Assembly (NCBI GenBank): GCA_964016885.1
Contig: OZ024762.1
Coordinates: 22,506,001-22,570,000, forward strand
Length of the DNA: 64,000 bases
Reading direction: 5' to 3'
Source of the DNA: Eledone cirrhosa
Taxonomy: Eukaryota
Made by a program: the position numbers and the translations under genes. This document shows positions 1,327 to 61,543 of the stretch, piece by piece. The notes below the pieces were generated by a model, which was not told where the DNA came from, made no database searches, and was given only the letters and a program-made list of their open reading frames with translations. Each line of letters starts with the position of its first letter. The first letter of the stretch is position 1.

Positions 1327-1329
<3 letters not shown>

Positions 1330-1522
1330 AAAGTTTTTACAAAGGCAGCCTCCTAATTTAATGGTCGCTTATATTATGGTACGTCAAAATTATTTATAAA
1401 ACTGTTTATATATTGTATTTTATCTGACGAAGGCATGCCATATTTTTAATATGGTATCCCTGAAATATGTATAATGAAATAAATATGGTTTTATAATTAT
1501 AGTTTCCATTTGTTTAATATCG
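1327..1522 (+). mobile_element. Family B1 hammerhead-bearing element, single arm, in (TA)n
   Basis: Homologous to 45854-46099, 48157-48624 and 55277-55544; TA runs on both sides. Confidence 0.85.
1410..1486 (+). ncRNA. Minimal type-I hammerhead ribozyme (B1)
   Basis: atattgtattttat CTGACGA aggcatgccatatt-ttt-aatatggtatccct GAAA tatgta TA atgaaataaatat; stems I and II pair. Confidence 0.85.
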
Positions 1523-1566: not shown

Positions 1567-1781
1567 GGAACGAGTAGGACCCCGACGGCTGAGCTCAAGC
1601 CGTTTCGACGGCTAATTCTGGACTAAAAAAAAAAAAAAAAAAATAGTCCAGAATTAGCCGTCGAAACGGCTTGAGTTCAGCCGTCGGGGTCCTACTCGGT
1701 CCTATTACCCACTCTACTACCCTAAGTATTGAGTACTTTGGTGCGTTATGGTCCACCTGGTTCCTTACCACATTCCCTTCG

Positions 1782-1783
<2 letters not shown>
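1567..1783 (+). mobile_element. Family A foldback element (hairpin with poly-A loop plus ~80-bp tail)
   Basis: Arms 1567-1624 and 1645-1702 are inverted repeats; five copies in the window, all in (TA)n. Confidence 0.9.
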
Positions 1784-2801: not shown

Positions 2802-3275
2802 TTATACTTCTCTTAGGTCAGTGTTGTTTGTTTGGGTGTTGTTGTTGTTCCACTCATTCTTTCTGTTTAGCTTTGGTCTTCTAATTTCTATTTCACTGGC
2901 CTCTCTGATTTGCCTATCTGCTGGGTCATTCCTATGTTTAGATATTATTCTAATTTCTATGTTGTCTATGTTACCGTCATGATGTTGTCTAGCATGTTCG
3001 TATAGTACTGACCCGTTTTTTCGTCCTTTTAGTTCCCCCCAGTGTTGGTCTATCCTTTCACCTATGCTACGAGCTGTCTCACCTATGTATGTTGTTGTCG
3101 TGTTTCTGCAAGTACCCTCTGTACATCTTATGCTATAGACTACGTTTCTAGTTTTACAGTTTATCCGGGGGTTCACCTTACATATGATACATTTCCTATT
3201 GGTACAGTGGGTTTTCTTAAAAGGGTAGGTTTTGCTGATCAGGGATTTTATGGTGGTTCCTGGCTTTTCTACCAC
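2802..3275 (-). pseudogene. GIY-YIG endonuclease domain of a Penelope-like element (5' truncated)
   Basis: CxxC...NCKTRNVVYSIRC...YIGETARSIGERIDQH...LYEH...RQIREASEI...PKLN. Confidence 0.9.
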
Positions 3276-3309
3276 CTTTATTTTTAATATATTATATATA
3301 TATATATAT

Positions 3310-3604
3310 GTAGGAGGTGAGTTTTATTGTAGTACAATAAAGCAATGCAGATATCGGATAAGAAGCACTCTACAGTCTGTAGGACTGGAATATACATAAT
3401 ATAATATATAAGAACAAAAGATGGTTGATTTAAAACTGCACTATGTTGATTTAAAACTGCACTATCCACAAGTGTTTTTTAACCTTCATATCATGTCTTC
3501 CTGTTTTATCTGATGAAAACACAAATATTATTGCATGATGATATTTGTTTTTGAAATGCGCATAATAAAATACATGGAACTCTTTTAACCATCTTTTGTT
3601 CTTA
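3310..3604. mobile_element. Family C element with one arm mostly deleted
   Basis: Inverted homologue of 55570-55998; keeps the tail, ~20 bp of one arm and one full arm. Confidence 0.9.
3502..3572 (+). ncRNA. Minimal hammerhead ribozyme (C)
   Basis: tgttttat CTGATGA aaacacaaatattatt-gcat-gatgatatttgttttt GAAA tgcgca TA ataaaata. Confidence 0.88.
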
Positions 3605-3613
3605 TATATATAT

Positions 3614-4151
<538 letters not shown>

Positions 4152-9345: not shown

Positions 9346-9348
<3 letters not shown>

Positions 9349-9538
9349 CGAAGGAAATGTGATAAGGAACCAGATGGACCATAGCGCACCAAAGTACTCA
9401 ATACTTAGGGTAGTAGAGTGGGTAATAGGAACGAGTAGGACCCCGACGGCTGAGCTCAAGCCGTTTCGACGGCAAATTCTGGACTCCAGAATTAGCCGTC
9501 GAAACGGCTTGTGCTCAGCCGTCGGGGTCCTACTCGTT

Positions 9539-9541
<3 letters not shown>
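9346..9541 (-). mobile_element. Family A foldback element
   Basis: Tail then inverted repeat centred ~9484; TA flanks. Confidence 0.9.
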
Positions 9542-9627
<86 letters not shown>

Positions 9628-9691
9628 CATTAAATTATGCCATGACTAAATTATAACCATCAACATAGTCAGGGTATGTCAGGCATCAACT

Positions 9692-9757
9692 TATTTTATC
9701 TGATGAGGACGTACTGTTGAAATAGCTCAGTATCTCTGAAATATGTATAATAAAATA
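9692..9757 (+). ncRNA. Minimal hammerhead ribozyme (B2; element ~9629-9803)
   Basis: tattttat CTGATGA ggacgtactg-loop-cagtatctct GAAA tatgta TA ataaaata. Confidence 0.85.
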
Positions 9758-9815
9758 TATTTCATCACATGAATGTCTATATTTATTAATATTTTGAAGT
9801 AATATATATATATAT

Positions 9816-9883
<68 letters not shown>

Positions 9884-9889
<6 letters not shown>

Positions 9890-10396
9890 AGTGTAATTTT
9901 CTACACAAAACGAAGGTTATAGAGAAAATTGAGGTTGGTAATGGCACATGGAATATATAAGAGACAGAATACTTTTTTGTGAAAAAACATATAATTTTAT
10001 AAGGTAAGGAAATAATAAAGGGTATAAAAAATGACCGGTTTCGATGGGTCTGCAAAAGCCATCTTTTCAAATGTTGATTAATATTAAGAAAAATTAATAA
10101 TAAGAAGAAGAGTTAAAATTTGGTATGTTTGTATATATAGGTGTGTGTATATATATATGTACTTACACCTATATATACACACACCTATATATACACACAT
10201 ACCAAATTTTAACTCTTTTTATTATTAATTTTTCTTAATATTAATCAACATTTGAAAAGATGGCTTTTGCAGACCCATCGAAACCGGTCATTTTTTATAC
10301 CCTTTATTATTTCCTTACCTTATAAAATTATATGTTTTTTCACAAAAAAGTATTCTGTCTCTTATATATTCCATGTGCCATTACCAACCTCGCTTT

Positions 10397-10401
<5 letters not shown>
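9884..10401. mobile_element. Family D foldback element (~235-bp arms plus short tail)
   Basis: 9921-10160 is the near-perfect reverse complement of 10165-10401. Confidence 0.92.
10247..10294 (+). ncRNA. U3-A8 variant hammerhead (D); mirror copy on - at 10028-10075
   Basis: TTGAAAA gatgg-cttttgcagac-ccatc GAAA ccgg TC; stem I weak. Confidence 0.6.
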
Positions 10402-10455
<54 letters not shown>

Positions 10456-18051: not shown

Positions 18052-18070
18052 TTATATATATATATATATG
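17285..18070. repeat. (CT)n/(CA)n/(TA)n compound microsatellite
   Basis: Direct inspection. Confidence 0.95.
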
Positions 18071-18128
18071 ACTGCCAATACTGGAATTGAACCATCATGG
18101 CAGTTGAGATATGTCATACATCAATTCA

Positions 18129-18198
18129 TATATTTTATCTGACGAGGACGTACTGAAAAAACATCACAGTACCTCCGAAATATATATAATAAAATATA
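18129..18198 (+). ncRNA. Minimal hammerhead ribozyme (B2; element ~18070-18243)
   Basis: tatattttat CTGACGA ggacgtactg-loop-cagtacctcc GAAA tatata TA ataaaatata; 10-bp stem I. Confidence 0.9.
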
Positions 18199-18259
18199 TA
18201 TTTTGATTATGTGAACGTTTTCATTTATTAATATTTTGAATAATATATATATATATAGT

Positions 18260-18816
18260 CTAAATACTGTTTCCATATATATGAGTCCCGGGGGTTTAAT
18301 CGGGGATAACAACGGGAGGATTCATAATAGTACCACTGATGATGTCATAGATGTGTGATGAAAGAACTTTGATAGACTATATATATATATATATAGTATT
18401 TAAGTATCGAGAAAGAGAGAAAAAGAAGGGATAGGTGATACATATAGTTATTTACCAAGTAGCGTATGCCAAAGGTGCTCGATACTAGTGCCGGCAGTAT
18501 TAAATATTCGAAGTGTTAATATTTAGTGGGCTAGAGAGTTAGCAGAGCGTAAGCACGTGGGAAAGTAAGAAATCGGAGAATTCTCCGATATTTTACTTTC
18601 TCCGATTTTTTACTTTCTCCGATTTTTTACTTTCCCACGTGTATATATATATATACACATATCTGTATTTTTAACCGTTAGTCAATCAATGATAAACATT
18701 GATTGCCAGATAAATTAACTATGGAGATATAAAAGATACAGGAGCGAAAACCAATCCAAACGGAACAGTGAGTGTGTTTTAATATTATTTCTGGCAATAT
18801 TATAGCAATATGACCC
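18260..18816 (+). mobile_element. Family H Penelope 3' end (hammerhead 18331-18374) split by a nested insertion
   Basis: tacca CTGATGA t gtcat-agatgt-gtgat GAAA gaac TT tgata; homology to the reverse complement of 2283-2460 resumes at 18661. Confidence 0.75.
18396..18641. mobile_element. Nested tail-plus-hairpin element with internal ~17-bp triplication
   Basis: cacgtgggaaagtaagaaatcggagaa vs ttctccgatt...ttactttcccacgtg; TA flanks. Confidence 0.7.
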
Positions 18817-18890
18817 TTAACGGCCGAGCAGCCTAATTTGCATATCGAGTGAACTCACTCGATATGCAAATTAGGCTGCTCAGCCGTTAA
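18817..18890. repeat. Near-perfect ~36-bp-arm palindrome
   Basis: ttaacggccgagcagcctaatttgcatatcgagtga-ac-tcactcgatatgcaaattaggctgctcagccgttaa. Confidence 0.95.
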
Positions 18891-18945
18891 TTTTCATAAG
18901 GAAAGTATATACTTTCGAACGTTCAACCATCTGGCAGAAGGGTAT

Positions 18946-19339: not shown

Positions 19340-20202
19340 GTAAATATTCTATGGCGGTTGTCGTGAAGAGATTGCTGTCGTTTATTTATCTACTATTTCT
19401 TTATAGGTGCCTTTTAATCTTATAGCCTGGTCTAATTGATTTTTTGTGTGGTTAATTATGCTAATTGGGAGAGGAAATGGTGTATATATACTATCAAAGG
19501 ATTCTATGGACATACTTTATAGTATATTGCTCTGATTATTTAATTTATTAATCCATCATTGAGCCACAACGTGAATGGCTGCCAGAACATATATATCTGT
19601 GACTTTGTCTAATTTGTGTATATGTAAATCTTTATATTTAATAATCTCCCATAAGTTTGAGATGCAATTTGGGCAATATTGGGCTGCGCTTTCTAGCAAC
19701 CAGCCCACTCGCCGTAAGCAACCAATCACATTCTTTCTGACTTGACCACTGCCACGTCACAGTCTTTAGATATTTTGAATTCGTTTCTGGCGGAGATCAC
19801 TTAAGAAAGTCCTTTGTCCAAATGAGTTTGTTTCCTGATGAGTTGGAAGCTCGAGATTTTATCCTTAATCGGATATTTCGGAAAGCGAACGAAACCCTAG
19901 TGTAGAAACGTGATCCTGGTATGTGTATATGCATTTTTTCTTCTAATTTTAATTTTATACCTAATTGTGTATGGTTGACGGTATATTTAATCGATTTCCA
20001 CGTGCTATTGAAATGTTGGGTAAATATTCTATGGCGGTTGGTCGCGAAGAGATTGCTGTCGTTTATTTATCTACTATTTCTTCATAGGTGCCTTTTAATC
20101 TTATAGCCGGGTCTAATTGATTTTTTGTGTGGTTAATTATGCTAATTGGGAGAGGAAATGGAGTATATATATTATCAAATGATTCTATGGACATACTTTA
20201 TA
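19337..20202 (+). mobile_element. Terminally redundant element: 680-bp unit plus ~185-bp direct repeat, in (TA)n
   Basis: 19337-19521 repeats at 20017-20202; internal hammerhead. Confidence 0.88.
19830..19909 (+). ncRNA. Hammerhead ribozyme with extended stem II
   Basis: gtttc CTGATGA gtt...aac GAAA ccctagtg TA gaaac; perfect 5-bp stem I. Confidence 0.8.
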
Positions 20203-20229
20203 ATATATATATATATATATATATATAAA

Positions 20230-20420
20230 GGAACGAGTAGGACCCCGACGGCTGAGCTCAAGCCGTTTCGACGGCTAATTCAGTCCAGAATTAGCCGTCG
20301 AAACGGCTTGAGCTCAGCCGTCGGGGTCCTACTCGTTCCTATTACCCACTCTACTACCCTAAGTACTGAGTACTTTGGTGCGTTATGGTCCACCTGGTTC
20401 CTTACCACATTTCTTCCGTT
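20230..20420 (+). mobile_element. Family A foldback element
   Basis: Matches 1567-1783; no poly-A loop. Confidence 0.9.
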
Positions 20421-40636: not shown

Positions 40637-40638
<2 letters not shown>

Positions 40639-40770
40639 CGAAGGAGGTGTGTTAAGGAACCAGATGGACCATAACGTACCAGAGTACTTAATATTTAGGG
40701 TAGTAGAGAGGGTATTAGGAAAATGTTTAAGCACGTCGAAACGGCTTGAGCTCTGCCGTCGGAGTTAACC

Positions 40771-40774
<4 letters not shown>
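40637..40774 (-). mobile_element. Family A diverged, internally deleted copy
   Basis: Tail plus gtcgaaacggcttgagctctgccgtc. Confidence 0.85.
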
Positions 40775-41018: not shown

Positions 41019-41023
<5 letters not shown>

Positions 41024-41259
41024 TAACAGATTAAAGTTTAAGCAAAGAATCGCTGCTTTCACTCTTAACGGCATCTTCTGAAACTAAAAAAATCAATCTG
41101 TGAACGCACAAGATCCCGTTAAGGGTGAAAGCACCGATTCTTTACTTAAACTTTAATCTGTTATTTTAGTACATATTTGCACTAGGGTTCTTATATATTT
41201 GATATATATTTATCCTTATCAAGCCCTCTTTGGATTTTAGTCTTCGCAGTTATTATTAT

Positions 41260-41262
<3 letters not shown>
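41019..41262. mobile_element. Family J foldback element (~60-bp arms plus tail)
   Basis: 41019-41077 inverted versus 41110-41168; TA flanks. Confidence 0.85.
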
Positions 41263-42330: not shown

Positions 42331-42337
<7 letters not shown>

Positions 42338-42762
42338 TAAACGGAATAGAAAATGCTGACAAATTGTTCACAGTTGAAAAATGGTTTAATTAGGAATAAA
42401 AGAGTATTAGTCATTGTATGGGTTAGTATTCAGTTGTGGTTTTAAGTTTTTAAAGTTTTTACCGGTTGCGCATTTCTAAATGCTTTTCAAAAATAATTTT
42501 GAGATAGAGTGTCCGTGTTGTTTGCTCTGATCTGGGCAAACAACACGGACACTCTATCTGAAAATTATTTTTGAAAAGCATTTAGAAATTCGCAACCGGT
42601 AAAAACTTAAAAAACTTAAAACCACAACTGAATACTAACCCATACAATGACTAATACTCTTTTATTCCTAATTAAACCATTTTTCAACTGTGAACAATTT
42701 GTCAGCATTTTCTATTCCGTTTACCAATATATAATAACTTGTGTGTTACACCTCTATTCTTT

Positions 42763-42766
<4 letters not shown>
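42331..42766. mobile_element. Family F foldback element (~200-bp arms plus tail) with mirrored U3-A8 hammerhead-like motifs
   Basis: Arms 42331-42528 and 42535-42730; TTGAAAA gcattt-ag-aaatgc GCAA ccgg TA at 42456-42494 (-) and 42567-42605 (+). Confidence 0.9.
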
Positions 42767-43248: not shown

Positions 43249-43500
43249 AGAGGTTTATTCACATTGCGGACAATTGTTTCTTTGATCTGGCAGGTCTAGA
43301 GATAGCTACCCGCCTGATTTTGCATCAATCGATCACCAATACTTTGTTATAACCAGTCTATTCATCAAAGCATGCGAGAATGAAGGTGAGACTGGTTATA
43401 ACAAAGTATTGGTGATCGATTGACGCAACATCAGGCGGGTAGCGATCTCTAGACCTACCAGTTCAGAGAAACAATTGTCAGCAATGTGAATAAAGCTCTT
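43249..43500. mobile_element. Family G foldback element (~110-bp arms)
   Basis: 43249-43359 inverted versus 43389-43498; arms contain GAAA caattg TC. Confidence 0.88.
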
Positions 43501-43544: not shown

Positions 43545-45482
43545 TATGAAAGTATTGAAGTTTGCTTGAAGCATTGTAGAATAATAAACATTTGGTCGTT
43601 TTGGAAGCCTCAACAAAGCAGATGGGTAAATCTCCGGGTAACAGAATCCGGTGGTGAAGAGAGAGATTTAAGAGGAAATGTATAATGAGACGTATAGTGT
43701 GTAGAGGAACGCAGGAAAGAGTGTAAAAATAATAACACGAGATAGAGTTACCTTGGGAGAGATTTAATTGTCCTTATATTTCGGATTTCGTATCCATCAA
43801 CTGGGGGTTTTCCCAGGGGAAAGTTTTTAGTCGGAGAGGAACGGTACGTGGCCTCTGTTGTCCGCCGTTTGTGTTCAACTCTACACACATATTCTGTAGA
43901 GCGCGCGTGCGCGGGGAATAGGTGCGGTGAAGCAAATGTCGAGGCAGTTCCTCGGAGTGGGATGGTGCATCACTGTCAATCCATTATACTACCTATATTC
44001 AGTCTTTGATACTGGCAATGTCGGTAGTCTGCCTGGTCGCTTGTTGGTCGGTGGATGGTGGGCACGCTATACACACCATAACAATCGTTCGAATGCCACT
44101 GTGTGTGTGTGTGTGTTGTTGTTTTGTTTGTTTACACCAGCCACATCATCTCCCCTCTCTCGGATCGGTTATTTATTTGTGGTCCTAGGCGTTTGATCCA
44201 AAGTGCTTCCTTGATTCTTAAAGTGCCGATGTTGCGTTCTGTCGCTAGCACTGTGGCAATGGGCCTTTCGTCTTTGTTTCCGCATTTGGTTATGTGTTTG
44301 CAGGAAGACGAGGCTCTGGTGTTGATGTGCTCCTTGATCCGGATATGTAGTGGCCGGATTGTGCTACCGATATAGTAGTGGTTGCACTTGTCACATTCTA
44401 CCCAGTATACAACGTATGTGCGTAAGCAACAGTTCGTTTGGCGCATCGGACAGTTGCTGAGGGAACACGCGTCAGCCAATTTCCCGGGTTTCCAGGAGAG
44501 GCATCTCCGTAGGGAGGGGCCCGAGTGGGCCAGGTGGATGTCGAGGCCCCCTCTCTCGGTATAGCCCTGCGGATAGCGTTGGTGGTTTTCTCGCTCAGGT
44601 TCGGGATTTTAAGGAAGCACTTGCTTTGGGTGTTTCTCTGCCTCTTGCGTCTAGTGTCTCTTACTCTGCTTGTAAGTGAGGCTGGGTATCCGTTCGTCTC
44701 CAGCACCCTGAGGAACCGCTTGGTGTGGGTGACACCACTCACGGGATCGCTGCATCTGTTTTTAAACCGCGTGATCTGGTTCGTGATGTACCCTCTTTTA
44801 GCACTGTTAGGGAGGGCATATTTGTAGTGGCTGAACAAGTCTTTGCAGGATGACTTGCGGTAGAAGCTGGTGTGGACCCCTCCCTGCTACGTGATGTTGA
44901 TTCGGAAGTCGAGGAGGGCAAGGGATCCATTGTCGTTGGGGTGTTCAACACTGAAGTCAATATTCTCGTCCGTGTTGCTGAACGTCTCGTTAATCCGGCT
45001 CGCCATCTCCTGGGAAGATGTGAGGATGGCGATGTCATCCATGTATCTTGAGAAGAAGACGACGGCGTTGGGGTGGCAGGTGTTGAGTACCTTGCGCTCG
45101 AGGCTGTCCATGTATGAGATCGCTAGCACAGCCGACAGGCTTGAGCCCATGGGCAGCCCCGAGGTCTGCCGGTATGTTTGGTCGAGAAAACCGAAATACG
45201 TGTTGTCAACGACGACGGATAGGAGTTGATGGAGGTCAGTGGGGGGTGAGCCCGAACCAGTGTAGGTCGGCAGATTGGACGCGTTCCATCAGTATATCAA
45301 CAGCCGGGAGCGCCGGGACCGAGGTGTAGAAAGCGACCACATCAAGGCTGAAGTCATACCTGTTAGCCTTCCTGGTGTCTGGATCCATTTGATGCAAGCG
45401 CTCCAACACCTTCTCGGAGCTGTTTACGTGTCCACGCAAGGTGTCTAGTATGGGTTCGAGTATTCTGGCTAGGAGCCATGAA
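43545..45482 (-). mobile_element. Penelope-like retroelement, 5' truncated, TA-flanked
   Basis: RT and GIY-YIG in one frameshifted reading frame, followed by ~590 nt of 3' region. Confidence 0.9.
44132..45482 (-). pseudogene. Penelope-type reverse transcriptase plus GIY-YIG endonuclease (frameshifted)
   Basis: FSLDVVAFYTSVP, GLPMGSSLSAVLAISYM, SRYMDDIAI, LALLDF, VVYWVECDKCNHYYIGSTIRPLHIRIKEH, LRIKEALWI...PQINNR. Confidence 0.92.
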
Positions 45483-45567: not shown

Positions 45568-45612
45568 AGTCACTGAAGAGGTCACAGAGTGTGTGACGAA
45601 AGAACTATGACT
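45568..45612 (+). ncRNA. Minimal hammerhead ribozyme (H-like; element ~45505-45770)
   Basis: agtca CTGAAGA g gtcaca-gagtg-tgtgac GAAA gaac TA tgact; 3' end atgaccctcccaaagtataacaata matches family H. Confidence 0.85.
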
Positions 45613-45853: not shown

Positions 45854-46098
45854 GCAAAAGTTCTATTTAAATTGTTGGGATACCACAAGTAAATATTTTT
45901 ATAACTGATATAAAGCACTCGATGTCTTCCAAAGTTAACGGTCGCATTTTGAAAGGGTACGTCAATGTTTATTTATAAAACTGGTATATATTGTATTTTG
46001 TCTGATGAAGGCATACCATAATTTAACTTGGTATCCTTGAAATATGTATAATGAAATAAATATGGTTTTATAAATATAGTTTCCATTTGTTAATATCG

Positions 46099-46099
<1 letters not shown>
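45854..46099 (+). mobile_element. Family B1 element with hammerhead at 45988-46063
   Basis: atattgtattttgt CTGATGA aggcatacca-loop-tggtatcctt GAAA tatgta TA atgaaataaatat. Confidence 0.88.
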
Positions 46100-46166
<67 letters not shown>

Positions 46167-47983: not shown

Positions 47984-48122
47984 AACGAAGGAAATGTGGT
48001 AAAAAACCAGGTGGACCATAACGCACCCAAGTACTCAATACTTAAGGTAGTGGAGTGGGTAATAGGAACCAGTAAGACCCCGTCGAAACGGCTTGAGCTC
48101 AGCCGTCGGCGTCTTACTGGTT

Positions 48123-48125
<3 letters not shown>
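47984..48125 (-). mobile_element. Family A copy with internal deletion
   Basis: Tail, ggaaccagtaagac, then gtcgaaacggcttgagctcagccgtc and the inverted end gtcttactggttcc. Confidence 0.88.
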
Positions 48126-48156
<31 letters not shown>

Positions 48157-48164
<8 letters not shown>

Positions 48165-48624
48165 ATATTAATAAATGGAAACTATATTTATAAAACCATA
48201 ATTATTTTATTATACATATTTCAAGGGTGACCAAGGTAAATTATGGTGCGGTTTCATCAGATAAAATACAGATTTGTTTTATAAATAAATATTGACATAC
48301 CCGGAAAAGAGGCAACCTCAACGGTTGAAATTCGGTGGATATACTATATATTATCCAGCGAATTTCTACCGTTGAGGTTGTCTTTTTTTCGGGTATGTCA
48401 ATATTTATTTATAAAACAAATCTGTATTTTATCTGATGAAAGCGCACCATAATTTACCTTGGCCGCCCTTGAAATATGTATAATAAAATAATTATGGTTT
48501 TATAAATATAGTTTCCATTTATTAATATATTGTATATTTACTCCACTCAGCTGTTGAGTGCTTTATATCAGATATAAAAATGTTTAAGCTTGTTGAATCT
48601 CAACAAATTAAATATAACCACTGC
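48157..48624. mobile_element. Family B1 complete foldback element with mirrored hammerheads (48203-48268 -, 48425-48490 +)
   Basis: ~185-bp arms centred ~48346; tail 48537-48624; tattttat CTGATGA...GAAA tatgta TA ataaaata. Confidence 0.92.
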
Positions 48625-48734
48625 ATATATATATATATATATATCACGCATAAGCATATAAGAATTGTCCGTTTTAAAATACGAACATAAAACGAAGAAG
48701 TGAAAGAGAGAAAGGAGGTCAGAGAAAGAAGGTC

Positions 48735-54909: not shown

Positions 54910-54913
<4 letters not shown>

Positions 54914-55250
54914 AAAAAGGGATGAAATCGAAAATGCAACTGAAGTCTTATTTAAAAAAAAATATATATATATTTATTTGGTTCCTTTACCGGTTTCGCA
55001 GTTCTTCTGCTTTTCAAAAGGTGAGTTGAGATGGAGGGTCTGTGGTTTTCACAGACCCTCCATCTCAACTCACCTTTTGAAAAGCAGAAGAACTGCGAAA
55101 CCGGTAAAGGAACCAAATAAATATATATATTTATAAAAAAAAATAAGACTTCAGTTGCATTTTCGATTTCATCCCTTTTTCTTTATACTTCCACTCGTGT
55201 AGGACACCTCGGTTATTTTTCATTATGTAAAAAAAACCTCACTTTCTAAT
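54910..55250. mobile_element. Family E foldback element (~135-bp arms plus tail)
   Basis: Near-perfect inverted repeat around gtttt at 55045-55049. Confidence 0.93.
55073..55110 (+). ncRNA. 38-nt U3-A8 hammerhead (E); identical mirror on - at 54984-55021
   Basis: cctt TTGAAAA gcag-aagaa-ctgc GAAA ccgg TA aagg; stems I and II fully Watson-Crick. Confidence 0.85.
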
Positions 55251-55276
55251 ATATATATATATATATACATATATAT

Positions 55277-55544
55277 GTAGAAATGTAGAAGTTCTATTTA
55301 AATTGTTGGGATACAACAAGCAAATATTTTTATAACTGATATAAAACACTCAACAAAATTATCCGGGAGTTTCCACCAGACATGGTCGCATTCTTTAAGG
55401 GTATGTCAATATTTATTTATAAAACTGGTCTCTATTATATTATATCTGATGAAAGCACACCATAATTTAACTTGGTGTCCTTAAAATATGTATAATGAAA
55501 TAAATATGGTTTTATAAATATAGTTTCCATTTGTTAATATATCG
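55277..55544 (+). mobile_element. Family B1 element with mutated hammerhead (GAAA to AAAA at 55483)
   Basis: CTGATGA aagcacacca-loop-tggtgtcctt AAAA tatgta TA. Confidence 0.85.
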
Positions 55545-55569
<25 letters not shown>

Positions 55570-55577
<8 letters not shown>

Positions 55578-55995
55578 AGATCAAAAGATGGTTAAATGAG
55601 TTCCATGTATTTTATTATGCGCATTTCAAAAACAAATATCATCATGCAATAACATTTGTGTTTTCATCAGATAAAATAGGAGGACATGATATGAAGGTTA
55701 AAAAACACTTGTGGATAGTGCAGTTTTAAATCAACATATCATATGTTGATTTAAAACTGCACTATACACAAGTGTTTTTTAAGCTTCATATCATGTCTCC
55801 CTATTTTATCTGATGAGAACGCAGATATCATCCCATGATGATATTTGTTTTTGACATGCGCATAATAAAATATATGGAACTCATTTAACCATCTTTTGAT
55901 CTTATATATTATGTATACTCCAGTCCTACAAACTGTAGAGTGCTTCTTATCCGATATCTGCATTGCTTTATTGTACTACAATAAAACTCACCTCC

Positions 55996-55998
<3 letters not shown>
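55570..55998. mobile_element. Family C complete foldback element with mirrored hammerheads (55608-55678 - intact; 55802-55872 + with GACA)
   Basis: ~170-bp arms centred ~55740; tail 55911-55998. Confidence 0.92.
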
Positions 55999-57386: not shown

Positions 57387-57392
<6 letters not shown>

Positions 57393-57569
57393 TCTTTTTC
57401 CGACAGCAAATTATATTGTTTATTAAACATTTCAAAATGGCTGTCAACGACGTTGTCGTAGATTGTGCGACATTTTCTTAATTTAATGAATACAACAAAC
57501 ACTTAGGTTTGAAAGCTGTAATATTATACCACTATTATTTCTATTGTCATACTAGCTTTTGTTCGTCTT

Positions 57570-59250
57570 CTCGTCGTGGTCGTTGTGGTGACGTTGTTGT
57601 TGCGGGCGCTGTTGTTGTGGTGACGTTGTTGTTGCGGGCGCTGTTGTTGTTGCAGGCGTTGTCGTTGTGGTGACGTTGTTGTTGCGGGCGTTGTCGTTGT
57701 TGCGGTCGTTGTTGTTGCGGTCGTTGTTGTTGCGGGCGTTGTCCTTGTTGCGGTCGTTGTTGTTGCGGGCGTTGTCGTTGTTGCGGTCGTTGTTGTTGCG
57801 GGCGTTGTCGTTGTTGCGGGCGTTGACGTTCTTGCGGTCGTTGTTGTTGCGGGCGTTGTTGTCGTTGTTGCAGGTGTTGTCGTTGTGGCGGTCGTTGTTG
57901 TTGCGGTCGTTGTTGTTGCGGTCGTTGTTGTTGCGGGCGTTGTCGTTGTTGCAGGCGTTGTCGTTATTGCGGGCGTTGTCGTTGTTGCGGGCGTTGTCGT
58001 CATTGGCGTTGACATTCTTGCGGTCGTTGTTGTTGCGGGCGTTTTCGTTGTTGCGAGCGTTGTCGTTGTTGCGGGCGTTTTCGTTGTTGCAAGCGTTGTG
58101 GTTGTTGCGGGCGTTCTCGTTGTTGCGGGCGTTGTCGTCGTTGGCGTTGACGTTCTTGCGGTCGTTGTCGACGTTGTCGTTGGGTCGTTGTCGTTGTTGA
58201 CGTTGTTGTCGTTGATGTGTTTGTGGACGTCGTTGGCGTTGAACGTCGTTGCTGTCGTTGTCCTCGTCGGCGTTGACGTCGTTGTGGTAGTCGTTTGCGT
58301 TGATGTCGTTGTGATCGTAGTAGTTGTTGTTGACGTTGTTGTTGTTGTGGTCGTTGTTGTTGTTGTTGTTATTGTGGTCGTTGAAGTCGTTGCGTTGTGG
58401 TCGTTTTTCTTGTTGTAGTTGACGACGACGTTGTTGTTGTTGTGGTTGTTGACGTTGCTGTGATGGTTGCGGTCGTTAACGTCGTTGTGTTGTGGTCGTT
58501 TTTCTTGTTGTAGTTGACGACGACGTTGTTATTGTTGTCGTTGTTGTTATCTTCGTTGTCGTTGACGTTGTTGTTGTCATCGTCTTGGTTGCTGTTATGG
58601 TTATCGTCGTCGTCGTTGTCACCTTGTTGTTGTAGTTGTTGTCACTGTTGTCGTTGTTGTGTGCACAGGATGGCCAACGACGACAACGCCCGCAACAACG
58701 ACAACGCCCGCAACAACAACAACGCTCGCAACAACGACAACGCTCGCAACAACGACAACGCTCGCAACAACGACAACGACCGCAACAACGACAACGCTCG
58801 CAACAACGACAACGCTTGCAACAACGACAACGACCACAACAACAACAACGACCGCAACAACGACAACGACCGCAAGAACAACGCCCGCAACAACGACAAC
58901 GACCGCAACGACGACAACGCTCGCAACAACGACAACGCCCGCAACAAAGACAACGCCCGCAACAACGACAACGCCCGCAACAACAACGACCGCAACAACG
59001 ACAACGCGCGCAACAACGACAACGACCGCAACAACGACAACGCTCGCAACAACGACAACGACCGCACAACGACAACGCTCGCAACGACGACAACGCCCGC
59101 AACAACAACGACCGCAACAACTACAACGCCCGCAACAACGACAACGACCGCAACGACGACAACGCTCGCAACAACGACAACGACCGCAACGACGACAACG
59201 CCCGCAACGACGACAACGCCCGCAACAACGACAACGCCCGCAACAACAAT
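57570..59250. repeat. Two inverted arrays of a 15/18-bp GTT/GCG-rich repeat
   Basis: Left unit gttgtcgttgttgcgggc; right unit gcccgcaacaacgacaac (its reverse complement). Confidence 0.9.
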
Positions 59251-59746
59251 ATTAATATTTTAAATATTTCTCTGCACACAAGCTTCTATATCATACATAT
59301 AAAATACTATACAACCCCCATAATACTCTTGATTGCCCGCTTAAAGTGCTTATATTCCATATAACAGCTTACCGCACTATAATCTTATATAAATAAGACA
59401 CAGGTGCATGCCCCACGTGTAACTAACTACTTCTAACTATCCTCCTGCATCACCTTCATAAACTGCCAATGTTGTATTATAACTTCAATTTTGTTGTAAT
59501 TTTCTTTTAATATGACTTTAATCTTTAAATGTAAACTGCCATGTTTAAATATTATAATGGATGTCAACCCACTGTGCATCAATATATACATATGTTTCTG
59601 TATGTCTCTTGTGTTGAAAAGGAGGTCAAGTATGTAAACAATCATTGAAAAATTGGTTCGAAGACTCCAAACCTCGGTTTGGAAGAAACAATTGTAAGCG
59701 AATAAATGATTTGAACAGAACTTTGATTCATGTAATTTCTATATAA

Positions 59747-60630: not shown

Positions 60631-60635
<5 letters not shown>

Positions 60636-61539
60636 GACGTAAAATAAGAAAATTATAAAAATTAACTTACTAAAATTTCACTCCAACTAATTAGTTTCTG
60701 AAAGGGAATAAACATAGTTTCCGAAGAAACGTACGGAGAAGCCTTTCGTCATCAGAGAAGTCTATTCTCAGCTAAGTTTCCAGGCGATGCGTGGACACAG
60801 GGAACTTATACAAAAATAATTCAGTGGATGGAAAAAAGCAAAGCGTGGACTAAGTTCCAAGATATTGAAAAAATCACTGCCTACAGCGTCGGTGGCAAAT
60901 TCAAAAGAATCAATCACGTGACATCGAGGTTAATCAGTGAGGAGTGGTTTGTTAAGAAGACAGCAGCCGAACCATTACTATGAAATATAGTAGCAGTTTT
61001 GGCCAATTTTGGCTCAACAAAATAATTTGGAGATAATTATAAAGAATTAGTATATCTACTAACATATATATACAGATGCATACTTATGCCAGCAAATATA
61101 TAGGTTTTGTCTTAGTAACTTTGTGGTTCAATGCAAGGGGATGCAGAACAATACTATGAAAGACGTCGACGCAATAGGCAGTGATTTGTTCAATGTCTTG
61201 GAACTTAGTCCACGCTTTGCTTTTTTCCATCCACTGAATTATTTTTGTATAAGTTCCCTGTGTCCACGCATCGCTTGGAAACTTAGCTGAGAATAGACTT
61301 CCCTGATGACGAAAGGCTTCTCCGTATGTTTCTTCGGAAACTATGTTTATTCCCTTTCAGAAACTAATTAGTTGGAGTGAAATTTTAGTAAGTTAATTTT
61401 TATAATTTTCTTATTTTACGTCTTTCATATTATTGTTCTGCATCCCCATGCATTGAACCACAAAGTTACTAAGACAAAACCTATATATTTGCTGGCATAA
61501 GTATGCACCTGTATATATATGTTAGTAGATATACTAATT

Positions 61540-61543
<4 letters not shown>
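60631..61543. mobile_element. Family I element: inverted, circularly permuted 526-bp unit joined to a forward arm plus tail
   Basis: 60631-60891 inverted versus 61167-61427; 61042-61166 inverted versus 61417-61543; tgaaagacgt at 60631 and 61157. Confidence 0.9.
61290..61352 (+). ncRNA. Atypical hammerhead candidate (I); mirror on - at ~60705-60768
   Basis: CTGATGA cgaa...ttcg GAAA ctatg TT tattc; stem I (gaata/tattc) is offset by 7 nt. Confidence 0.4.

What the first reader, a model, noticed from the sequence alone, without database searches (positions are those of the whole stretch)
48157..48624. Shared asymmetric architecture: (TA)n - inverted arm - arm - one-sided tail - (TA)n, ribozymes pointing outward
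Seen in B1 (here), C (55570-55998), D (9884-10401), E (54910-55250), F (42331-42766), A and J. Two head-to-head arms, with a 35-120-bp extra tail on only one side. Wherever a motif is present it reads away from the centre. Symmetric-TIR MITEs would not predict the tail or the ribozyme polarity. Inference: this matches the PLE inverted pseudo-LTR plus tail configuration, with each strand of a cut TA tract priming its own cDNA and the two joined at the template 5' ends.
Basis: partly seen in the sequence, partly recalled or inferred. Interest (0 to 1): 0.82.

Follow-up and report, generated by a model that had tools for sequence, protein, structure and literature searches.

The report
Paired Penelope retrotransposon ends in microsatellites
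These lopsided palindromes are the two cut-short ends of Penelope-type jumping genes inserted into TA repeats, a known layout, and their junctions suggest that both strands of the cut DNA copied the same capped RNA from two different start points.

Summary
Observation confirmed. B1 is (TA)n, an inverted short arm, a direct arm, a 92-nt tail and (TA)n, with outward-facing minimal hammerheads; seven other window families share the layout.

The unit is the pLTR plus tail of Penelope-like elements (PLEs). B1 and A are tied to Hydra-clade RT/GIY-YIG ORFs, C probably so, F (probably E) to a Neptune-type one; D, J and G are unlinked. The layout is published (Craig 2021).

Possibly new is the evidence on mechanism:
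- Outer ends are fixed at two sites (257 of 284 arms) and pair one of each (54 of 64).
- Centres vary but pile up at one 5' limit, where 44 B1 arms carry a non-templated G, like a reverse-transcribed cap.
- Arms of one insertion share derived variants 20-fold above permutation.
- Both start sites precede a covarying hairpin.

Best model: both nicked strands prime on one capped RNA at two sites, and the cDNA ends are joined by microhomology. Fold-back joints occur in independent raw reads, so this is no assembly artefact.

Against: no RNA data, no clear cap signal in family A, and one palindrome copied whole.

The parts
48125..48160 (.). left (TA)n target tract
48161..48341 (-). B1 short arm: inverted pLTR copy, 3' end at initiation site 1 (about +186 to +191), 5' end at +3
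   Evidence: L001 1622-1434
48218..48260 (-). hammerhead core to GAAA on the short arm, reading outward
   Evidence: motif scan; missed by the stricter descriptor
48342..48351 (.). 10-nt AT-rich filler at the head-to-head junction
48352..48624 (+). B1 tail arm: pLTR from +3 to initiation site 2 (+275)
48425..48490 (+). minimal type I hammerhead: 8-bp stem I, CUGAUGA core, stem II, GAAA, 2-bp stem III; predicted cut after 48482
   Evidence: descriptor; no Rfam hit; activity untested
48533..48624 (+). 92-nt tail, which is the start of the element's 5' UTR; the ATG lies about 51 nt further on in ORF-bearing copies
48540..48564 (+). hairpin motif just 3' of site 1 (ACTC..GAGT-GCTTT); a second copy (GCTC..GAGC) follows site 2 in ORF-bearing copies
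48625..48644 (.). right (TA)n target tract
47985..48124 (-). family A insertion next to B1 (Hydra PLE end, 80-nt tail, 3' half of hammerhead)
1567..1782 (+). family A insertion
9348..9540 (-). family A insertion
20228..20419 (+). family A insertion
40638..40773 (.). family A inverted tail plus short arm, no palindrome
55571..55998 (+). family C insertion (probably Hydra PLE end, 89-nt tail)
3310..3602 (.). family C inverted tail plus short arm, no palindrome
9886..10414 (-). family D insertion (35-nt tail on left, U3-A8 hammerhead variant); parent ORF not found
54910..55248 (+). family E insertion (about 61-nt tail, U3-A8 hammerhead); relative of F
42335..42766 (+). family F insertion (3' end of a Neptune-type PLE, 33-40-nt tail)
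41019..41262 (+). family J insertion (94-nt tail); no hammerhead recognised, parent ORF not found
60632..61541 (+). family G insertion: tail arm joined to an inverted arm made of tail + about 146 nt + pLTR, i.e. a short, probably non-autonomous tandem unit
45854..46101 (.). B1-related inverted tail plus short arm, no palindrome
55268..55544 (.). B1-related inverted tail plus short arm, no palindrome
1327..1522 (.). B1-related tail stub plus short arm, no palindrome

Best explanation
SHOWN: each object is an insertion of PLE pLTR sequence into (TA)n, made of two arms joined head to head. One arm ends at site 1 (end of the pLTR), the other at site 2 (end of the tail, which is the start of the 5' UTR). 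Arms can be any length, up to the whole ORF. INFERRED: the element's GIY-YIG endonuclease nicks both strands of a TA tract. Each 3'-OH primes reverse transcription on the same sense RNA, one at site 1 and one at site 2. Each site has a few TA-like bases and, in the Hydra families, an RNA hairpin just downstream that probably positions the RT. Each cDNA runs toward the RNA 5' end and often reaches a capped start inside the pLTR (+1), adding a C opposite the cap. Where the site-2 cDNA displaces the site-1 cDNA the arms overlap and a palindrome results; where it stops early, only an inverted tail is left. The two cDNA 3' ends are joined by microhomology or filler bases. Arms that pass +1 into the 3' UTR and ORF come from priming in the 3' pLTR, from tandem or circular templates, or from a jump to the 3' pLTR. 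The ribozymes point outward because both arms are sense copies fused at their 5' ends. Confidence: PLE identity about 0.97; two target-primed cDNAs 0.8; one capped RNA 0.6.
For: ORF linkage: L098 reads TA, inverted tail stub, pLTR+tail, 741-aa ORF, 3' UTR, pLTR without tail; 28 of 30 ORF-start copies have the unit directly upstream; A is linked to a second Hydra ORF at 40% identity; F follows a Neptune-type endonuclease in 8 of 10 copies. Fixed outer ends: 109 short-type, 148 tail-type, 27 other of 284 arms; 54 of 64 fully classified pairs are one of each. Variable centres: 70 classes among 80 pairs. 5' limit: 37 of 45 young pairs have an arm ending at -2..+5 (partly selected by my queries). 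Non-templated base: 44 genome matches with C after +1 on the cDNA strand, control 0, against 11 A and 8 T among 100 of 118 listed (hand count); 0 of 30 examined continue into upstream template, and two loci show it on both sides of the junction. Same source: 30 shared derived non-CpG variants in 5942 sites (0.0050) against 0.00025 mean and 0.0011 maximum in 1000 permutations, while private differences stay near the between-insertion level (0.026 vs 0.035). Not fold-back of the tail cDNA: the short arm reaches more than 10 nt further 5' in 22 of 45 pairs, and ORF-length short-type arms are joined to tail-type arms (L031, L104, L105, L107, L108). Hairpin outer pair is A-T or G-C in 77 of 78 B copies, 35 of 35 A, 5 of 5 C. 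At least 3 TA-phase bases at site 1 in 8 of 8 families (read) against 6.5% background. In vitro, a PLE nicks and extends both strands from two RNA sites that bracket the tail (PMC11167929).
Against: No RNA data, so +1 as a capped start rests on genomic junctions alone. In 11 of the 30 examined C-junctions the C could come from the partner arm. Family A has a sharp 5' limit (57 of 100 listed diverge within about 6 nt) but C follows in only 8 of the 57 (hand count). None of 28 ORF-start copies begins at +1, although a full-length cDNA should sometimes stop there. The bias 'short arm reaches further' (22 vs 7) did not repeat in the tail-only sample of family A (3 vs 6 of 20 pairs). Shared variants could come from one locus rather than one molecule, or from conversion between arms. 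One palindrome with an identical complex junction sits at two loci with non-homologous flanks. 10 of 64 pairs are tail/tail or short/short. The hairpin regex fixed the inner bases, so only one pair was tested, and folds are weak (-3.6 to -9 kcal/mol). PAc primed without target homology in vitro. D, J and G are not linked to an ORF.
Confidence: 0.65

Rival explanations
1. Self-priming or fold-back: one cDNA, or an antisense RNA template as proposed by Arkhipova and colleagues, folds back at a palindrome and is copied back toward the target, giving the inverted arm.
For: Proposed in PMC3846280 (passages). It explains shared variants. Some centres lie in self-complementary stretches of the hammerhead (L181, L184, L193). 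In family A the tail arm reaches further in 6 pairs and the short arm in 3.
Against: A copy of the tail cDNA cannot reach further 5' than it, yet the short arm does in 22 of 45 B1 and 3 of 20 A pairs. Five window insertions have little or no overlap. ORF-length short-type arms are joined to tail stubs. An antisense template does not predict a G at the sense +1.
Confidence: 0.12
2. Two separate RNA molecules from the same source locus (cis-preference), each primed at one strand, rather than one RNA used twice.
For: Needs no strand displacement. Explains shared variants, tail/tail and short/short pairs (10 of 64) and a G on both arms.
Against: Does not by itself explain the one-of-each rule (54 of 64, about half expected) or the many tail arms that stop early.
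Confidence: 0.15
3. The palindrome is itself the mobile unit (MITE-like, or spread by DNA conversion between TA tracts) and centres vary by later deletion.
For: L007 and L065 share a complex junction at non-homologous flanks 124 kb apart. Six other junction classes recur. Palindrome centres are deletion-prone (general knowledge).
Against: 70 classes in 80 pairs. Recurrent classes sit at the +1 limit or an internal palindrome, and the +1/+2 class occurs in both polarities. Private variants form no arm-specific sibling haplotypes. Arms run on into RT/endonuclease ORFs. No symmetric terminal repeats.
Confidence: 0.06
4. Fold-back artefact of sequencing or assembly.
For: Perfect palindromes are a known long-read artefact (recalled). 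The B1 locus itself was not checked in independent reads.
Against: Arms differ by 2.6% per site and share fixed outer ends across loci. Opposite-strand joints of family A at 1632-1638 (the +1 region) appear in raw Illumina reads of X7 and X8 and in contigs of X1.
Confidence: 0.01

Closest known systems
Hydra-clade Penelope-like elements (Craig et al. 2021, PMC8557442; includes Hydra-1_Obim)
   Same: Single ORF with RW(K/R), DKT, CxCX5C linker, C-terminal GIY-YIG, CxxC and CxH; hammerhead in the pLTR; (TA)n target; inverted 5'-truncated copy; tail at one end.
   Different: Tails of 79-92 nt against the 30-40 nt given for PLEs; element about 4 kb with a 1.3-1.6 kb 3' UTR against 'generally <3 kb'; the listed Hydra-1_Obim hammerhead differs from these by eye, so probably new families; a duplicated hairpin and a capped limit were not seen in the passages I read.
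Poseidon PAc of Anolis (Frangieh et al. 2024, PMC11167929)
   Same: Both strands nicked and extended; two internal RT start sites bracket the tail; ribozyme cleavage does not define the template (no pile-up of 5' ends at +134 here).
   Different: PAc starts lie inside the ORF and lack target homology. Here they lie in the 5' UTR, 80-90 nt apart, with TA-phase bases. The parts I read do not explain how inverted copies form.
Neptune-clade PLEs
   Same: F (and probably E, D): CX4CxxC linker with long spacing before a C-terminal GIY-YIG; U3-A8 minimal hammerhead; tails of 33-61 nt.
   Different: Clade assigned by eye against supplement alignment rows; no tree; full ORF not fetched.
LINE-1 twin priming (Ostertag and Kazazian 2001; only the reference entry was seen, content recalled)
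   Same: Second-strand nick primes internally on the same RNA; cDNAs joined by microhomology; untemplated 5' G from the cap in full-length copies (PMC4859970).
   Different: In L1 the second site is variable and arms do not overlap. Here both sites are fixed and arms often overlap fully.
Non-LTR retrozymes / paired minimal hammerheads (PMC4209133; bioRxiv 10.64898/2026.07.22.740005)
   Same: Short non-coding PLE-derived repeats with type I hammerheads; pairs on opposite strands 100-700 bp apart were noted in Schistosoma; G looks like a short tandem unit.
   Different: Retrozymes are head-to-tail arrays. These are head-to-head single insertions, mostly truncation products of ORF-bearing elements.

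Membership tests
EN+ Penelope-like elements | ORF with RT and GIY-YIG endonuclease linked to the repeat | tested here: met
   B1; A; F. Pfam support is weak: GIY-YIG E=7e-4, below cutoff; no RT family for P0003; no solved relative. Atlas hits at 0.96-0.98 carry HTH_animal, GIY-YIG or RVT_1 in part of their members.
EN+ Penelope-like elements | pLTR at both ends of the ORF (partial tandem) | tested here: met
   L098; 28 of 30 ORF-start copies
EN+ Penelope-like elements | inverted 5'-truncated copy and tail at one end | tested here: met
   definition
EN+ Penelope-like elements | hammerhead motif in the pLTR | tested here: met
   descriptor 11 hits vs 0-3 shuffled; Rfam negative; none recognised in J
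EN+ Penelope-like elements | ribozyme self-cleavage and retrotransposition activity | not testable with these tools
   needs biochemistry; P0003 itself has altered RT and linker motifs
EN+ Penelope-like elements | ORF linkage for families D, J, G (and firm linkage for C, E) | tested here: inconclusive
   D search blank; J and G no ORF in the loci held; C follows a Hydra endonuclease at 828 and 874 nt in 2 loci; E one rearranged locus
Hydra clade | RWK-type and DKT motifs | tested here: met
   RLRWR and SDKT in P0003; RLRWR and SDKT in the A ORF; definition
Hydra clade | CxCX5C linker; CxxC and CxH near the end; no CCHH core | tested here: met
   read directly in P0001 and relatives; regex in 18 loci: CxCX5C 18, CxH 18, CxxC-E 15 (loose patterns)
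Hydra clade | (TA)n insertion preference | tested here: met
   94 of 109 short arms and 132 of 148 tail arms are followed by TA-phase sequence
Hydra clade | placement in RT phylogeny | not tested
   reference proteins were seen only as supplement text and compared by eye
Neptune clade (F, E) | CX2-5CxxC linker and CCHH-type C-terminal endonuclease | tested here: inconclusive
   motifs seen in L246 and L230 and match Neptune rows by eye; no RT tree
MITE / TIR DNA transposon | symmetric terminal inverted repeats and fixed internal structure | tested here: not met
   asymmetric fixed ends and variable centres
MITE / TIR DNA transposon | fixed-length target site duplication | not testable with these tools
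   hidden inside TA tracts; no empty alleles examined
Non-LTR retrozyme | head-to-tail tandem units each with a hammerhead | tested here: not met
   arms are head to head; only G shows a partial short tandem

The most novel reading that the evidence does not exclude
Hydra PLEs carry two copies of an RT-positioning hairpin in their 5' leader. A dimeric protein primes both strands of a TA cut on one capped RNA and makes two 'strong-stop' cDNAs that run off at the cap. These either fuse (the abundant palindromes) or jump to the 3' pLTR, like retroviral first-strand transfer, to make long and tandem copies. One cycle would then explain the tail, the inverted copy and the pseudo-LTR.
Probability: 0.4. 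Interest if true: 0.72.

Novelty: new member of a known kind. Interest (0 to 1): 0.5.

Why it matters
How PLEs make inverted copies and one-sided tails is named as unresolved in PMC8557442 and PMC3846280, and the one in vitro study says later steps are unvalidated. This genome holds thousands of natural junctions (13,159 exact pattern matches for family A). They favour two target-primed cDNAs from a sense RNA over self-priming on an antisense template, and they name two start sites, a hairpin and a 5' end that can be tested directly. Practically, these repeats fill about 9% of this window and could be mislabelled as MITEs or miRNA hairpins (Rfam returns only such sub-threshold hits). If transcribed they would form long double-stranded RNA; that is untested.

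Tried and rejected
Rfam: no hammerhead hit, only sub-threshold miRNA/snoRNA matches. The repeat finder was swamped by TA arrays. Pfam found no RT family on P0003 or P0002 and PDB gave nothing useful. I first took the linker for Nematis from memory; the supplement showed Hydra. Ribozyme cleavage as the template 5' end: rejected, no pile-up near +134. Palindromic masters making arm-specific siblings: not seen. Cap signature in family A: not clear. Search for D copies was blank, probably because simple sequence is skipped. The link C to ORF start in L164 was discounted because a TA tract intervenes. The depth drop near 1631 in the RAD runs was discounted as a probable restriction site, and the joint cluster at 1584 as a subfamily alignment break. 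My hammerhead descriptor did not detect the complete family A motif; it rests on reading. Sequencing runs: no RNA holder listed. Earlier findings: none. A test of strand transfer by recombination breakpoints at +1 was considered and not run (too little divergence between pLTRs). Supplements of PMC11167929, PMC3846280 and PMC4209133 were not opened, and the bioRxiv supplement is closed; they may bear on novelty.

Full report
SETTING. The window is G000:C23:22506001-22570000 of a 3.0-Gb assembly. Its SINEs look octopus-like; that is recalled and comes from no call. Family letters other than B1, C, D, E and F are mine.

OBSERVATION. B1 is as described: TA tract, inverted arm 48161-48341, 10-nt filler, direct arm 48352-48624 ending in a 92-nt one-sided tail, TA tract. 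The same layout holds for C, D, E, F, J, G and four copies of A, with tails of 35-115 nt. Hammerhead motifs read outward wherever present. My descriptor found 11 in the window against 0-3 in 20 shuffles, but missed several that I accept from reading. Rfam found none. Five further insertions have the same two outer ends with little or no overlap, so the palindrome is a special case.

WHAT IT IS. B1 copies run upstream through a 1.3-1.6 kb non-coding region into a GIY-YIG ORF. L098 holds TA, inverted tail stub, pLTR plus tail, a 741-aa ORF, 3' UTR and a pLTR without tail. In 28 of 30 ORF-start copies the unit lies directly upstream, with the ATG about 51 nt after the tail. So the unit is the pLTR and the tail is the start of the 5' UTR. 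The protein has RWR, DKT, CxCX5C (lost in P0003, present in P0001), CxxC and CxH, the features that define the Hydra clade. Family A belongs to a second Hydra ORF, 40% identical over 438 aa. C follows a Hydra endonuclease in 2 loci. F follows a Neptune-type endonuclease in 8 of 10 copies taken from 41 matches. E shares upstream repeats with F and has one rearranged link. D, J and G are unlinked. Library support for the ORF is weak; the Atlas places it among RT/GIY-YIG-type clusters.

ENDS AND CENTRES. Numbering B1 from the A of ACTATCC as +1, 284 unique arms end near +191 (109), near +275 (148) or elsewhere (27). Of 80 head-to-head pairs, 54 are one of each, 8 tail/tail, 2 short/short and 16 have an unclassified end. 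The 80 pairs fall into 70 junction classes. These loci came from queries that favour arms reaching +1 or long tail arms. In a tail-only sample of family A, 20 of 30 copies have an adjacent short arm, again with varied centres. ORF-length arms obey the same rule (L031, L104, L105, L107, L108, L110).

THE 5' LIMIT. Genome-wide, 44 exact matches have C after +1 on the cDNA strand, where the template would give G. The complementary search gave 118 matches, 100 listed; by hand, 71 read through, 11 have A, 8 have T and 10 have G and then diverge. C is 14.5% of the unit. None of the 30 C-loci examined (of 44) continues into upstream sequence; in 11 the C could be the partner arm's; two show it on both sides. 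An untemplated 5' G is read as a reverse-transcribed cap for L1 and SVA (PMC4859970). Family A also has a sharp limit (57 of 100 listed, of 13,159) but only 8 of 57 have C. That limit lies in hammerhead loop II, which explains why A palindromes keep half a ribozyme. Against a start at +1: none of 28 ORF-start copies begins there.

ONE SOURCE. Of 62 young pairs (both arms at least 88% identical to the reference), 43 overlap by 60 or more sites. They share 30 derived non-CpG variants in 5942 sites, 0.0050 against 0.00025 (maximum 0.0011) in 1000 permutations. Private differences are 0.026 against 0.035 between insertions, so arms are not recently homogenised. Variants A129G, A107G and C73G occur on both arms in 3, 2 and 2 insertions and never on one. 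This shows one source locus; one molecule is inferred. The short arm reaches more than 10 nt further in 22 of 45 pairs, the tail arm in 7; in family A it is 3 against 6 of 20.

START SITES. At site 1 the template continues for at least 3 bases in TA phase in 8 of 8 families (read); background is 6.5% of 1426 positions. In B1 and A both sites are followed within 3-8 nt by RCTC..GAGY-RCTT, with ACTC/GAGT at site 1 and GCTC/GAGC at site 2; C has it at site 1. The outer pair holds in 77 of 78 B, 35 of 35 A and 5 of 5 C copies. One regex caught both B sites and I assign its 17 G-C cases to site 2. Only one pair was free to vary and folds are weak. D, E, F, J and G have other hairpins in their tails.

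INDEPENDENT READS. A non-palindromic family A copy was used as reference for 4 of 9 listed runs. Raw reads of X7 and X8 show loose TA ends at both sites (1498, 1578) and opposite-strand joints at 1632-1638, several also in contigs of X1. B1's own locus was not tested.

AGAINST PURE DE NOVO FORMATION. L007 and L065 share one complex junction, 97.3% over 482 nt, with non-homologous flanks in 7-kb stretches. Some palindromes are therefore copied whole, by an unknown route.

WHAT IS KNOWN. Craig 2021 (PMC8557442; passages, section 11, supplement searches) describes inverted truncated copies, a 30-40 bp tail at one end, and TA targeting. Frangieh 2024 (PMC11167929; parts 1-2 of 4) shows both-strand extension from two sites bracketing the tail. 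Cervera 2014 (PMC4209133; parts 1-2 of 4) reports opposite-strand hammerhead pairs and the U3-A8 variant, and proposes circular templates. PMC3846280 (passages) proposes self-priming on antisense RNA and calls the question open. The retrozyme preprint was read in part 1 of 5. Searches returned no paper giving cap-G, shared-variant or duplicated-hairpin evidence for PLEs; the library lacks most subscription papers, including several Penelope studies, so this is no proof of absence.

VERDICT. The added value is genomic evidence that favours twin priming on a capped sense RNA. Interest 0.5.

Noticed in passing
G000:C28:77527.7 kb and 77651.8 kb (L257, L258): A whole B1 palindrome with the same 12-nt templated junction insert at two loci 124 kb apart with unrelated flanks.
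   Followed up: partly
window 60632-61541; L098 254-751: Family G unit (tail + about 146 nt + pLTR, about 535 nt) recurs and looks like a non-autonomous, retrozyme-like PLE derivative.
   Followed up: partly
window 9628-9801, 18070-18242, 45568-45612, 19829-19910: Further type I hammerheads from other families, the first three ending at TA tracts.
   Followed up: no
window 44135-44886 (-) and 2805-3323 (-): Decayed GIY-YIG-like ORF pieces of other PLE types (read by eye); not Hydra-like by tblastn. A 251-nt palindrome lies at 43249-43499.
   Followed up: no
window 57388-59746: TA-bounded 2.4-kb segment with GC-rich GTT/AAC-type repeats in inverted arrangement.
   Followed up: no
loci L066, L072, L124, L232, L235: Different PLE families stack in the same TA tract, each insertion leaving new targets; possible positive feedback on microsatellite growth.
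   Followed up: no
window 3809-4078, 18809-18898: SINE-associated and other palindromes not flush with TA tracts.
   Followed up: no
L033 155-6010: Near-perfect 310-nt tandem array with an internal inversion; may be an assembly artefact.
   Followed up: no
runs X5, X6: Other organisms hold small shares of B1 words; X6 contigs carry family A with the same tail end.
   Followed up: partly
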